Assembly (NCBI RefSeq): GCF_009914755.1
Contig: NC_060944.1
Origin: the human T2T-CHM13v2.0 reference genome, Homo sapiens
DNA length: 64,000 nucleotides
Strand: one strand, 5' to 3'
Of the stretch, positions 9,335 to 13,180 are shown in pieces; within the stretch, counting starts at the first letter, position 1; every line of letters starts with the position of its first letter. The position numbers and the translations under genes are program-made. The notes under the pieces are model-generated. The model was not told the origin of the DNA and made no database searches. It was given only the letters and a program-made list of their open reading frames with translations.

Positions 9335-12300
9335 TATTTACAAATAGGCTAATTCACTAGCTCTAGTTTTTATCATAAGTTGTCACCCCATTCGTAAAGC
9401 TTAGATGTTGCAAAATAATAACTTTGTCCACAATGAACACAGGCACTTTACTAAAAACGCTCTTGTAGACCTGTGGTTATCATCTAAAACCATCGTCTAG
9501 ATATGGAGATACTAGCAAAGAGCCCTTCCCTTCACCCTTCCTCTTCTCCCTCTTCCACCATCCCCGTGACTAAGTACAGGATGTCTAGCTCCAAGGGGTG
9601 GACTAATAAAGGTCACTCCCAGAGGACAGGCCTTCCTAAAAACTAACAAAAGGACATTCACAAAGGGACTGATTTACTACATCTATTTTTAACATACTTT
9701 GAGCATTAAGACTTATCCTTTAATACACAATATTAACTAAAATGCACATATAGAACAATGGTTAGACCATCTGAACTAATCTCAGGAGCACAGAACCCCT
9801 CTCCCTGCATACCTCCTCTGCCCACCCCCCCTTCCCCCACCCCAAACACCCAATGAATAGTCTGCATTCGCTCCTAAGCATCAAGTTTTAACAATTCCAT
9901 TCCCAAATGCAACCACTCCTAGGAAGTACTGAAAACAAATGCTTAGAGGGGTGTTACTTAAGCCCTCTACTGTTAACCTACATTGTGCACTTTTTTTTTT
10001 GAAACGGAGCCTCGCTCTGTCGCCAGGCTGGAGTGCAGTGGTGCGATCTTGGCTCACTGCAACTTCCGCCTCCCAAGTTCAAGCGATTCTCCTGCCTCAG
10101 CCTCTCGAGTAACTGGGGCTACAGGTGGGCACCACCACGACCAGCTAATTTTTGTATTTTTAGTAAAGATGGGGTTTCACCATGTTGGCCAAGATGGTCC
10201 TGATCTCTTGACCTCGTGATCCGCCTGCCTCGGCCTCCCAAAGTGCTGGGATTACAGGCATGCGCCACTGCGACAGGCCGTTGTACACTTTTAAACACCT
10301 AGAAAGACTAGATGTTTCAAACTGGACTTAAGTTTTCCATTATATACACAGTAGCATTGAATAAATGGTATACATACATAACACAGACTGTAATTTGAGT
10401 GTCTTCTAAATAGGAACATTCTGGCCTAGAACCCTTCCCTTTCCCACCTCTACCAACCCCGTGGACAGCTATAAGCCATCTGTAATGCTTAGGGGGGGTT
10501 TTAACAATTTCACTTGTTTTTAAGAAGTCTTCCCTATGAATTTTAACACAAAGTGTACTCAATGTAGTAGTTTACTAATTCTACTTTTGTCATATACTGG
10601 CAACCTTTTTAACATCGACTAGACGTAAATTAGGACTCCTATGTCCGCTTATATACACTATATACACAGCACAGTAAATGAAAATGCAGACATAAGGGAC
10701 AATGGTCAATGTGCCTCCTCATAAACACACTGGACACTGGTAGAAAGCCCTTTGCACTTTGTGCTCCTCCTTCCCCCTGAACCAGCACAAATATCAAAAT
10801 GGGTACTGCTCAGAGAATTGATCAATTTCCAAGACAATATTTCATATCAAAAGGATAGCTACAAAATGTGTTATTTACTACCTCTACTTTTAACATACTT
10901 TGTGCACTTCTAAACATCTAGAAAGACTAGATGTTTCAAATAAGGACTTAAGTTTGTCCGCTATATACACAGTAGGGTTGAATAAACTACACACATGTAA
11001 CAATGGTTATATCTGATAGTGTCTTCTAAATACGAACATTCTGGTCTAGAACCCTTCATTCCTTCCAACTCCTCTCCACCACCAACCTGATGGATATAGG
11101 CACGTGTCACTTAGAGCTGATGTTATCTCACTTCCAAAAGTCCTTTTCAGAAGACAGCCTTTCTACAAATTTTAACAAAGTGTACAAAATGTGTTAGTTT
11201 ACTAACTCTACTTCTGTCATACATTGGCAACCTCTTTAATATCTAGAGACTAGATATTATAAAATCGGGACTAATTTGTCCGTTATATATACAATATATA
11301 CAGTATAGCAAAGTTAAATGAAATGCATGTAACATATACACAATGGATTAAGCTGAAATTTTCTAATAAACAATGGCAAAACACCATTTGCAATTTCTTC
11401 CCTCCCACCTCCCAGGTGGTTCAACAATTCCACTTCCAAACAGCATTTCCCATCAGTTTTTAAAAGCTATTTACAAAGTGTTATTCTACTACCACTTTTA
11501 AATACATCAAGCACTTCCAAATATCTAGAAAGACTAGATATTTCATATAACTTGTCCACCACATACACAGCACTGTTAAATAAAATTGCACACACATAAC
11601 AATGGTTATCATCTGAGGTATCTTCTAAATGTGGCCATTTTGGCCTTGAATCATTCCCTCCTCCCTTCCTTCTCTGCCTTCAATCCAGTGGACAAGTACA
11701 GGCACGTGTAATGCTTAGAGATGGTCAAACAAATTCCTATGCAAAAGTCTTTACAGAAGACAAGTTTTCCTACGAATTTCAACACAAAGTGTACAAAATA
11801 TGCTAATTTTACTCCTTTGTCATACACTGGCAACCTCTTTAACATCTAGAGACTAGATGTTGAAAAATTAGGACTATTTGTCCATTATATATACTATATA
11901 CAGAGCAAAACAAAATGCACAAAACATATAGAAAAATGGTGTCTGAAAATGTCCAAGTATGAACACACTAGTAATATTACCTTTTGCAATTTCTTCCCTC
12001 CTACCTCCTCTAAACTATTGAACAAGTATAGACATTACTATACTGTTCACAAAGGTGGCTTCACAATTCAATTTCCAAAAGCATTTCCTATGAATTTTAG
12101 CAAAAAGATATTTACAAAGTGGTATTTTACTACCTATACATTTAACATACATCGGGCACTTCTAAACATCTAGATAGACTAGATGTTTCAAGTAAGGAGT
12201 TAATTTGTCTACTATGTATACAGCAGTCTTGAATAAACTGCAAACATGTAACAACAGTTATAATTTGAAAGAGTCTTCCAAATGTGAACATTCTGGCCTA

Positions 12301-13180
12301 GAACCCTTCCCATCTCCATCAACCCAGAAGACATCAAATTTTCAGAAGACAATCTTTCCTAGGACTTGTAAAACAAAATGTACAAAATATATTAGTTTAC
12401 TAACTCTACTTTTGTCATACACTGGCAACCTCTTTAACATCCAGAAAGACTAGATGTTGTCAATTAGGACTCGTCTGTCCTTTATGTACACTATATACAC
12501 AGATAAGTAAAACAAAATGCACAGACATAATGATTCATCTTGCCTCGCTGTAAACAGGATGGCATAGAGCTCTCTGCACCTCCCCCTCCTCTCTCCTCCC
12601 CTGAACCACTGCACAAACACAATGAGTATTACTCAACAGGTGATTTGGCCATTCCCCCCCAAAAATATTTCCTATGAATTGTAACAAAAAGGTATTTACA
12701 AAATGTGATTTTGCTACCTCTAATTTTAACATATCAGGCACTTCAGAACATCTAAAAAGAAGAGACATTTCAAAAAAGCTTAGCATTGTCAACTATATAC
12801 ACAGTAGTGAGGAATAAAATGCACACAAAACAATGGATAGAATATGAAAATGTCTTCTAAATATGACCAGTCTAGCATAGAACCTTCTTCTCTTCCTTCT
12901 CAGGTCTTCCAGCTCCATGTCATCTAACCCACTTAACAAACGTGGACGTATCGCTTCCAGAGGCCGTCTTAACAACTCCATTTCCAAAAGTCATCTCCAG
13001 AAGACATGTATTTTCTATGATTTCTTTTAAACAAATGAGAATTTACAAGATGTGTAACTTTCTAACTCTATTTTATCATACGTCGGCAACCTCTTTCCAT
13101 CTAGAAGGGCTAGATGTGACAAATGTTTTCTATTAAAAGGTTGGGGTGGAGTTGAGAGCAGCTTTTTCATATTATATACA
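9335..13180 (-). promoter_or_regulatory. 15 perfect PUMILIO response elements (UGUANAUA in the RNA)
   Basis: Plus-strand TATNTACA starts at 9335, 10341, 10650, 10659, 10962, 11286, 11295, 11468, 11895, 12109, 12483, 12492, 12693, 12794 and 13173 (hand count). Confidence 0.93.
9991..10279 (-). mobile_element. Alu (AluSc-like) inside NORAD, sense to the lncRNA
   Basis: Full Alu dimer with poly(T) at 9991-10000. It has AluSc-like diagnostics (GATCACGAGGTCAAGAGATC; CCTGGCGACAGAG). The TSD is TTGTGCACTTT (~9983) / TTGTACACTTT (~10281). Confidence 0.9.

What the first reader, a model, noticed from the sequence alone, without database searches (positions are those of the whole stretch)
10293..13116. 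Repeated hairpin with compensatory changes and G-U wobbles that work only on the transcribed strand
Stems: AAACATCTAG/CTAGATGTTT (10912-10936, 12164-12188) and AACATCTAG/CTAGATGTT (11841-11861). Double compensatory change in TAATATCTAG/CTAGATATTA (11237-11259) and AAATATCTAG/CTAGATATTT (11519-11543). The single-substitution copies at 10293-10317 and 12436-12458 give C-A mismatches on the plus strand but U-G wobbles on the minus-strand RNA. Paralogous covariation plus strand-specific wobble points to selection on RNA structure. Most copies lie a few tens of nt 3' of a PRE in the RNA, so the hairpin may present the PRE or bind a cofactor (inference).
Basis: partly seen in the sequence, partly recalled or inferred. 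Interest (0 to 1): 0.7.

Follow-up and report, generated by a model that had tools for sequence, protein, structure and literature searches.

The report
Known long hairpin of NORAD repeats
The repeated hairpin is real and sits in the human NORAD long noncoding RNA, but it is the already published "long hairpin" of the NORAD repeat units, whose exact job is still unknown.

Summary
All seven stated stems are at the stated coordinates. The core pattern occurs 6 times against 0 in 100 shuffles. I count 8 clear copies plus 2 eroded ones, one per NORAD repeat unit (NRU) 1-10, on the minus (transcribed) strand.

This is motif (iv) of Tichon et al. [quoted passage not shown] The 2018 paper calls it the "long hairpin" and made hairpin mutants mLH-7 and mLHcom-7. 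It was probed by nextPARS and in-cell SHAPE-MaP. So it is already known.

What I add is modest:
- 40 NORAD retrocopy loci serve as a neutral control, and stems decay there at the background rate.
- The three G-U wobbles in NRU3, NRU9 and NRU10 are derived A-to-G changes on the functional lineage.
- NRU1 and NRU2 hairpins are eroding.
- Statistical support from human sequence alone is weak to moderate.
- In-silico stem breaking does not change PRE (Pumilio recognition element) accessibility, so "presents the PRE" is not supported.
- The loop is as conserved as the PRE. Four units carry a UCUUU pentaloop, the shape PTB RRM1 binds. That is an untested lead.

The parts
13095..13119 (-). NRU1 long hairpin. 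It has 7 contiguous bp in present-day human sequence; the two outer pairs were lost on the functional lineage.
   Evidence: (z -1.37)
12746..12770 (-). NRU2 eroded hairpin. The two loop-proximal pairs are broken. Positions 4 and 5 are U-G and G-U.
   Evidence: z -0.16; 0 of 10 local pairs in the global MFE
12435..12459 (-). NRU3 long hairpin, 9 bp with UCUUU loop. The U-G wobble comes from a derived A-to-G at window 12442.
   Evidence: z -2.01; G in 5 retrocopies, A in 18
12164..12188 (-). NRU4 long hairpin, 10 bp, loop UCUAU.
   Evidence: z -5.24
11840..11862 (-). NRU5 long hairpin, 9 bp, UCU triloop.
   Evidence: z -3.16
11519..11543 (-). NRU6 long hairpin, 10 bp, UCUUU loop. Stem position 4 is U-A instead of C-G.
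   Evidence: z -3.38; U and A in all 15 retrocopies
11237..11259 (-). NRU7 long hairpin, 10 bp, UCU triloop. Stem position 4 is U-A instead of C-G.
   Evidence: (z -3.32)
10912..10936 (-). NRU8 long hairpin, 10 bp, UCUUU loop.
   Evidence: z -3.32
10612..10626 (-). NRU9 shortened hairpin. A deletion leaves 5 bp, including a G-U wobble from a derived A-to-G at window 10624.
   Evidence: z -1.61; A in 14 retrocopies, G in 2
10293..10317 (-). NRU10 long hairpin, 10 bp, UCUUU loop. The U-G wobble comes from a derived A-to-G at window 10298.
   Evidence: z -4.56; G in 5 retrocopies, A in 10
8598..13940 (-). NORAD lncRNA, single exon, the host transcript of all copies.
   Evidence: hub annotation in the finding; PRE map

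Best explanation
These are the 'long hairpins' of the NORAD repeat units. Each of NRU1-10 carries one copy, inherited from the ancient tandem duplication that built NORAD. Each copy sits 3' of the Pumilio recognition element(s), a 4-bp short hairpin and a U-rich stretch, and 5' of the A/G-rich, UAAA-containing region where SAM68 binds.

Shown: in the RNA (minus strand) a 7-10 bp stem closes a pyrimidine loop (UCUUU, UCUAU, CCCUU or UCU). It is stable locally and within the folded 3-kb repeat region. It is kept in the functional gene while it decays at the neutral rate in retrocopies.

Inferred: the hairpin most likely acts as a small architectural module that makes each repeat unit fold on its own and fixes the spacing and orientation of the flanking single-stranded protein sites (PRE for PUM1/2, UAAA pairs for SAM68). 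Because stem sequence and loop are conserved as strongly as the PRE, an undiscovered sequence-specific reader of the loop or stem is a live alternative.
For: Identity with the published element:
[quoted passage not shown] It notes A-to-G and G-to-A changes that preserve the stem and an EvoFold call (passages).
- Tichon 2018 gives the order PRE, short hairpin, U-rich stretch, longer hairpin of 8-9 bp, A/G-rich sequence, and used mutants mLH-7 and mLHcom-7 (passages).
- Chorostecki 2021 names NRU1, 3-8 and 10 as the eight units with a clear long hairpin. Those are exactly the 8 clear copies found here.
- The in-cell SHAPE-MaP preprint places NRU7 (2609-2704 nt) and the NRU6 long stem in low-reactivity, low-entropy regions. 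My NRU7 hairpin is RNA 2682-2704.

Folding:
- The 35-nt windows around the 8 clear copies fold at -8.1 to -11.9 kcal/mol. z-scores in 45-nt windows are -2.0 to -5.2 for NRU3-8 and NRU10.
- 9 of 10 local hairpins form in the global MFE of the 3-kb repeat region.

Constraint:
- Paralog identity is 0.797 in the stem, 0.894 in the loop and 0.867 in the PRE columns, against 0.612 elsewhere.
- Pairing is 92.6% against 27-47% when the partner is slid by 1-3 columns.
- In 40 retrocopy loci, stems change at 6.5% (181/2774) against 7.2% elsewhere (p=0.18) and loops at 7.8% (61/787, p=0.53). The DNA palindrome therefore does not maintain itself.
- Only 44 of 159 one-sided stem changes in retrocopies keep RNA-sense pairing. 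On the functional lineage in NRU3-10 it is 3 of 3 (p=0.021).
- At the inner pairs, G-U cells favour the RNA strand 5 to 0 (p=0.014 against the retrocopy ratio).
- A tree built from flanks only puts NRU6 and NRU7 in different subfamilies (odd-unit clade support 90/97). The C-G to U-A change therefore arose twice or by a short conversion tract. NRU2 shows the U-G intermediate at the same position.

Architectural reading: this is the authors' own hypothesis (discussion passage).
Against: - Covariation among human paralogs is thin. Only 2 of 10 pairs change on both sides, a count that 198 of 500 shuffles reach.
- The inferred substitution density on the functional lineage is not significantly lower in stems (4/161) than in the rest of the repeat region (104/2414, Fisher p=0.41).
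- Counting all units, 4 stem pairs were kept by wobble and 4 were broken on the functional lineage (p=0.15). NRU1 lost two outer pairs and NRU2 its two loop-proximal pairs.
- At the two outermost stem positions, 4 cells pair only on the non-transcribed strand.
- The high sequence conservation of both arms and loop is more than a pure spacer would need.
- The architectural function is a hypothesis. No experiment I could read isolates the hairpin's effect. The mass-spectrometry table for the hairpin mutants could not be opened.
Confidence: 0.85

Rival explanations
1. The hairpin is a docking site for a sequence- and shape-specific RNA-binding protein that reads the pyrimidine loop on a stable stem (PTBP1 RRM1 is the concrete candidate). 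NORAD would then carry an array of a second protein beside Pumilio.
For: - The loop is the most conserved part among paralogs: identity 0.894, against 0.867 for the PRE columns and 0.612 for other columns.
- I infer 0 of 39 loop positions changed on the functional lineage, while loops decay normally in retrocopies (61/787).
- Four units (NRU3, 6, 8, 10) have a UCUUU pentaloop closed by G-C.
- PTB RRM1 binds a stem-loop with a UCUUU pentaloop at Kd 0.10 uM, 250-fold tighter than single-stranded RNA (passages of PMC7192611).
- Recovery of SAM68 and HNRNPF in pull-downs was affected by hairpin mutations.
Against: - The authors of the pull-down and structure studies state that specific proteins for these elements remain elusive.
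- In the PTB study, replacing the loop by UUCG lowered affinity only 4-fold, so loop sequence discriminates weakly.
- NRU5 and NRU7 have a 3-nt loop, and NRU7 is among the most functional units.
- Two literature searches (NORAD + PTBP1 + Pumilio; NORAD + PTBP1 + eCLIP + lncRNA) listed no paper reporting PTBP1 on this hairpin. In the three I opened, PTBP1 was not mentioned in connection with NORAD.
- 0 of 39 loop changes against a 4.3% background is expected by chance about one time in five (my arithmetic from the numbers).
Confidence: 0.2
2. One reading: the hairpin presents the nearby PRE, that is, it raises Pumilio binding by keeping the PRE exposed.
For: The hairpin begins 23-35 nt 3' of a UGUANAUA in 7 of 10 units. 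The arrangement is conserved across units.
Against: - In-silico opening energies of the 8 upstream PREs change by at most 0.6 kcal/mol, in both directions, when either arm is replaced by its complement. They return to wild type in the compensated version.
- NRU4 and NRU6 have perfect hairpins but no canonical PRE within 120 nt upstream.
- The reporter study reports limited effects of predicted structure on PUM binding. For NRU3 and NRU7 mutagenesis its text describes strong effects only for PRE mutations. The figures were not visible to me.
Confidence: 0.08
3. No selection on structure as such. An inverted repeat present in the ancestral unit was copied by tandem duplication and persists because the whole repeat core is under sequence constraint for other reasons.
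For: - Both arms are highly conserved in sequence. Only one stem position shows a true double change.
- The stem rate on the functional lineage is not significantly below the rest of the repeat region (4/161 against 104/2414, p=0.41).
- NRU1 and NRU2 lost pairs.
Against: - Changes that did occur in NRU3-10 are all pair-preserving: 3 of 3 derived wobbles, and C-G to U-A in two units of different subfamilies.
- Inner-pair wobbles favour the transcribed strand 5 to 0.
- NRU9 suffered a deletion yet retains a 5-bp hairpin in the same register.
- Published cross-mammal evidence and probing data support the structure.
Confidence: 0.07
4. The near-identical palindromic arms pair between units or between NORAD molecules and act as RNA-RNA stickers for NORAD-Pumilio condensates.
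For: Eight units share almost the same arms, so cross-pairing is possible in principle. Chorostecki 2021 raises hairpin-hairpin interaction as a possibility.
Against: - In the global MFE of the 3-kb region, 9 of 10 hairpins form locally and none of their arms pairs with another unit.
- Extended dimers are only 0.4-2.8 kcal/mol better than two monomer hairpins at 1 M standard state. Hairpins therefore win at cellular concentrations.
- COMRADES work reports that NRUs mostly fold independently.
Confidence: 0.04

Closest known systems
NORAD repeat-unit 'long hairpin' (motif iv of Tichon et al. 2016, Nat Commun, PMC4947167; 'long hairpin' or 'long stem' in Tichon 2018, Chorostecki 2021, Farberov/Ziv 2024 and the 2023 SHAPE-MaP preprint)
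   Same: Same gene, same strand, same units (NRU1, 3-8, 10 clear; NRU2 and NRU9 degenerate), same 8-9 bp stem, and same position after the PRE, short hairpin and U-rich stretch. The argument from A/G changes that keep pairing is also the same.
   Different: Nothing essential. I add polarity from retrocopies (the human wobbles are derived), a neutral-decay control, erosion of NRU1 and NRU2, and an explicit note on loop conservation.
PTB RRM1-bound stem-loops with a UCUUU pentaloop in the EMCV IRES (SL F, SL H; PMC7192611, PMC11417363)
   Same: A stable stem closed by G-C with a UCUUU pentaloop, identical in loop sequence to NRU3, 6, 8 and 10.
   Different: Viral IRES context. No evidence here or in the papers I searched that PTBP1 binds the NORAD hairpin. 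NRU5 and NRU7 have 3-nt loops.
Repeat-A stem-loops of XIST (named from my own knowledge and from a passage)
   Same: Short conserved stem-loops repeated in tandem units of a lncRNA, thought to organise protein binding.
   Different: Unrelated sequence, nuclear RNA, different proteins, and much shorter repeat units.

Membership tests
NORAD NRU long hairpin (Tichon 2016 motif iv) | Lies inside NORAD repeat units on the transcribed strand | tested here: met
   All 10 copies lie at 10293-13119, within NORAD 8598-13940 (minus strand, hub annotation). They recur about every 300 nt.
NORAD NRU long hairpin (Tichon 2016 motif iv) | Predicted stem of eight or nine base pairs | tested here: met
   7-10 bp in the 8 clear copies. 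The RNAalifold consensus has 9 pairs.
NORAD NRU long hairpin (Tichon 2016 motif iv) | Order within the unit: PRE(s), short 4-bp hairpin, U-rich stretch, long hairpin, A/G-rich region | tested here: met
   Alignment A1 shows the PRE, then GGAC...GUCC, a U-rich stretch, the hairpin, then AAAGAGG or AGAAG. The PRE lies 23-35 nt upstream in 7 of 10 units.
NORAD NRU long hairpin (Tichon 2016 motif iv) | Clear in NRU1, 3-8 and 10; unclear in NRU2 and NRU9 (Chorostecki 2021) | tested here: met
   The 8 matches with at most one mismatch per arm fall in the 1st, 3rd-8th and 10th units. The 2nd and 9th are degenerate.
NORAD NRU long hairpin (Tichon 2016 motif iv) | A/G transitions that keep the stem paired | tested here: met
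   Five G-U or U-G cells at inner pairs. Three are derived A-to-G changes.
Any curated Rfam family | Match to a covariance model | tested here: not met
   cmscan of 8400-14100 at E<=1 gave only Alu-related hits at 9999-10278. No Rfam model covers the hairpin.
PTB RRM1 pentaloop stem-loop | UCUUU pentaloop closed by a G-C pair on a stable stem | tested here: met
   Met in 4 of 10 units (NRU3, 6, 8, 10). NRU4 has UCUAU, NRU1 CCCUU, and NRU5 and NRU7 UCU.
PTB RRM1 pentaloop stem-loop | Bound by PTBP1 | not testable with these tools
   No CLIP data are available here. Literature searches listed no report.

The most novel reading that the evidence does not exclude
The long hairpins are not mere spacers. 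They are an array of loop-specific protein docking sites: four carry the UCUUU pentaloop that PTB RRM1 binds with 0.1 uM affinity. NORAD would then be a two-protein scaffold in which a pyrimidine-loop reader sits about 25-35 nt from each Pumilio site. The stepwise loss of the NRU1 and NRU2 hairpins and the three derived wobbles would reflect tuning of that array in primates.
Probability: 0.1. Interest if true: 0.5.

Novelty: already known. Interest (0 to 1): 0.12.

Why it matters
NORAD is one of the few lncRNAs with a clear mechanism (Pumilio sequestration). Its repeat units are among the rare lncRNA regions with conserved secondary structure. The hairpin itself has been in print since 2016, and hairpin mutants, in-vitro probing, in-cell SHAPE-MaP and COMRADES have all been applied to NORAD, so the finding does not open a new question.

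What remains open, here and in the literature, is what the hairpin does.

Tried and rejected
- Rfam scan of the gene: no family for the hairpin.
- Lee et al. 2016 (PMC4715682): not held.
- Supplementary data of Tichon 2018, the mass-spectrometry intensities for the hairpin mutants. They would show which proteins depend on the stem. Only an index page and an unreadable PDF are available, so that question stays open.
- Orthologs: no vertebrate collection is offered. R-scape on eutherian alignments could not be run, and I used human retrocopies instead.
- PRE-accessibility hypothesis: tested in silico and rejected.
- Inter-unit or intermolecular pairing: tested by global MFE and cofold and judged unlikely.
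- TREX paper on the ND4 segment: lists 360 interactors but none is hairpin-resolved, and PTBP1 appears only in its reference list.
- RNA-Lexis 2026: recovers the repeat architecture but says nothing specific on the hairpin in the passages seen.
- Classifying the NRU2 C-to-U change at the first 3'-arm base as 'kept by wobble': dropped, because no retrocopy resolves its order relative to the partner's change.
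Full report
**What is in the sequence.** The window region 10293-13119 lies inside NORAD (8598-13940, minus strand; hub annotation). The core pattern ATCTAG-N3-9-CTAGAT occurs 6 times in the 64-kb window, all in NORAD. It occurred 0 times in each of 100 dinucleotide-preserving shuffles. Allowing one mismatch per arm adds the two 'wobble' copies, giving 8 clear copies. Aligning the ten repeat-unit cores (A1) shows two further degenerate copies. One is in the second unit (12746-12770). 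The other is in the ninth unit (10612-10626), where a deletion left a 5-bp hairpin in the same register. I number the units NRU1-10 from the 5' end of the RNA.

**Folding.**
- On the minus-strand RNA the 35-nt windows around the 8 clear copies fold at -8.1 to -11.9 kcal/mol.
- In 45-nt windows the z-scores against 200 shuffles are -1.37 (NRU1), -0.16 (NRU2), -2.01, -5.24, -3.16, -3.38, -3.32, -3.32 (NRU3-8), -1.61 (NRU9) and -4.56 (NRU10).
- The plus-strand versions of the wobble copies are weaker: z -0.95 for NRU3, -1.48 for NRU10 and -1.01 for NRU9.
- In an MFE fold of the whole 3-kb repeat region, 9 of 10 hairpins form locally. NRU2 does not.

**Strand specificity.** Five cells are G-U or U-G on the RNA strand (NRU2 twice, NRU3, NRU9, NRU10) and would be A-C or C-A on the other strand. 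At the two outermost positions the reverse holds: four cells pair only on the plus strand. The consensus energies of the two strands are almost equal, -7.48 against -7.26 kcal/mol. The strand argument therefore rests on the helix core, not on the whole stem.

**Covariation among the human paralogs.**
- 92.6% of 95 cells are standard pairs, against 87.1% in column shuffles (0 of 500 reach it) and 27-47% when partners are slid by 1-3 columns.
- The covariation score is 0.191 against 0.144 (1 of 500 shuffles reach it).
- Only 2 of 10 pairs show a change on both sides, a count that 198 of 500 shuffles reach.
- The informative pair is stem position 4: C-G in seven units, U-A in NRU6 and NRU7, and U-G in NRU2.
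- A maximum-likelihood tree built from the flanks with the hairpin removed separates odd from even units (support 90/97). NRU6 falls in the even group and NRU7 in the odd clade. The double change therefore arose twice or through a short conversion tract. NRU2 shows the expected wobble intermediate.

**A neutral control from retrocopies.** The window's own assembly holds many NORAD retrocopies, 97% to about 70% identical. I fetched 40 loci. I projected the hairpin columns through reciprocal-best BLAST alignments and kept HSPs of at least 72% identity.
- In these copies stem positions change at 6.5% (181/2774), against 7.2% (3361/46676) for the rest of the repeat region (p=0.18).
- Loops change at 7.8% (61/787, p=0.53).
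- So nothing at the DNA level keeps the palindrome intact.
- Of 159 one-sided stem changes, 44 keep pairing on the RNA strand. Of the 115 that break it, 60 would be wobbles on the opposite strand.

**Polarity of the human wobbles.** Ordered by identity, the retrocopies act as a fossil series.
- At the NRU3 wobble site (window 12442) the four youngest copies and one old copy have G; 18 have A.
- At the NRU10 site (10298), 5 have G and 10 have A.
- At the NRU9 site (10624), 14 have A and 2 have G. The CA:TG ratio of 13:1 (p=0.002) argues against simple CpG decay.
- All three wobbles are therefore derived A-to-G changes on the functional lineage from perfect pairs.
- The U-A pairs of NRU6 and NRU7 are present in all 15-16 copies but one, so they are ancient.
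- Against this, NRU1 lost two outer pairs on the same lineage (U-to-C at 13118, U-to-G at 13097). NRU2 lost its two loop-proximal pairs (12761, 12762, with 12755 also changed).
- Tally: within NRU3-10, 3 of 3 derived changes preserve pairing (p=0.021 against the retrocopy rate of 44/159). Over all units it is 4 kept and 4 broken (p=0.15).
- The 5:0 excess of RNA-sense wobbles at inner pairs has p=0.014 against the retrocopy ratio. That split into inner and outer pairs was chosen after seeing the data.
- The inferred substitution density on the functional lineage is 4/161 in stems, 0/39 in loops, 5/130 in PREs and 104/2414 elsewhere in the repeat region. Stems do not differ significantly from the rest (p=0.41).
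- Erosion in the peripheral units fits the published statement that units 3-5 and 7-9 are the most constrained.

**What it is.** It is the published long hairpin of the NORAD repeat units.
- Tichon et al. 2016 (passages read) list four motifs in repeats 1-10. [quoted passage not shown] They state that the structure is supported by preferential A-to-G and G-to-A mutations that preserve the stem, also detected by EvoFold.
- Tichon et al. 2018 (passages) call it the longer hairpin of 8-9 bp. They made mLH-7 and mLHcom-7 mutants for pull-down mass spectrometry. They report that SAM68 and HNRNPF recovery was affected by mutations in several structured elements. They propose that the hairpins may position protein sites rather than bind a protein.
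- Chorostecki et al. 2021 (passages) derive the consensus from NRU1, 3-8 and 10, exactly the 8 clear copies here. With nextPARS data they find NRU2 folds similarly in its major conformation.
- The 2023 SHAPE-MaP preprint (passages) places NRU7 (2609-2704 nt) and the NRU6 'long stem' in well-folded regions in cells. My NRU7 hairpin is RNA 2682-2704.
- Farberov, Ziv et al. 2024 (passages) state that proteins recognising these elements remain elusive. They suggest a role within the overall architecture that clusters PREs.
- Rfam has no model for it.

**How it most likely works.**
- Shown: a stable local stem-loop on the RNA strand, kept in the functional gene and lost neutrally in retrocopies.
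- Inferred: it acts as a folding module that keeps each unit independent and sets the geometry of the PRE and SAM68 sites.
For the 8 PREs upstream of clear hairpins, the energy to open the octamer in a roughly 200-nt context changes by at most 0.6 kcal/mol, in either direction, when either arm is replaced by its complement. NRU4 and NRU6 have perfect hairpins without a canonical upstream PRE. The published reporter study finds limited effects of small structures near PREs. For NRU3 and NRU7 mutagenesis its text describes strong effects only at the PREs (figures not seen). That idea is therefore not supported.
- Cross-pairing between units is also unlikely. No arm pairs with another unit in the global MFE. 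Dimers are only 0.4-2.8 kcal/mol better than two hairpins at 1 M.

**A lead that is not in the papers I could search.** The loop is as conserved among paralogs as the PRE (0.894 against 0.867; other columns 0.612). Four units carry a UCUUU pentaloop closed by G-C. PTB RRM1 binds exactly such a stem-loop at 0.10 uM, 250-fold better than single-stranded RNA. However, loop replacement by UUCG costs only 4-fold in affinity. Searches for NORAD with PTBP1 listed no report of this. In the three papers I opened, PTBP1 appeared only in other contexts. This is a resemblance, not a test, and I give it about 0.1.

**Verdict.** Interest is low.

Noticed in passing
G000 loci L002-L041 (for example L002 at 97% identity, L006 98%, L003 94%, L004 92%): The assembly holds at least 40 NORAD retrocopy fragments spanning about 97% to 70% identity. 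Ordered by identity they date single substitutions on the functional NORAD lineage, such as the three A-to-G wobbles and the stepwise erosion of the NRU1 and NRU2 hairpins.
   Followed up: yes
window 12746-12770 (NRU2): The NRU2 hairpin was intact in the older retrocopies (9 bp with a U-G at position 4) and lost its two loop-proximal pairs in the lineage leading to the present gene. The youngest retrocopies show intermediate states.
   Followed up: yes
window 10283-13129, the 45-nt windows around each hairpin: In most units the MFE extends the hairpin by a second, weaker helix. It pairs the U-rich stretch 5' of the hairpin with the A/G-rich stretch 3' of it, across a 1-2 nt bulge. The register differs by one base between odd and even units, so I did not test it for covariation.
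   Followed up: partly
window 9999-10278: An Alu-like element (weak Metazoa_SRP and mir-1268 matches) sits within 15 nt of the NRU10 hairpin on its 3' side in the RNA. It therefore replaces most of what follows the hairpin in the other units.
   Followed up: no
window 11286-11302, 10650-10666, 12483-12499: Odd-numbered units carry tandem PREs one base apart, while even units carry a single PRE or a degenerate one. Together with the tree of the flanks, this shows the array grew by duplicating an odd-even dimer. The alternation is noted in the literature.
   Followed up: partly
alignment A1 columns 91-106 (for example window 10945-10960 in NRU8): The short 4-bp hairpin (GGAC...GUCC) between the PRE and the U-rich stretch is visible in most units. 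The MAFFT alignment is out of register there, so I made no pair counts.
   Followed up: no
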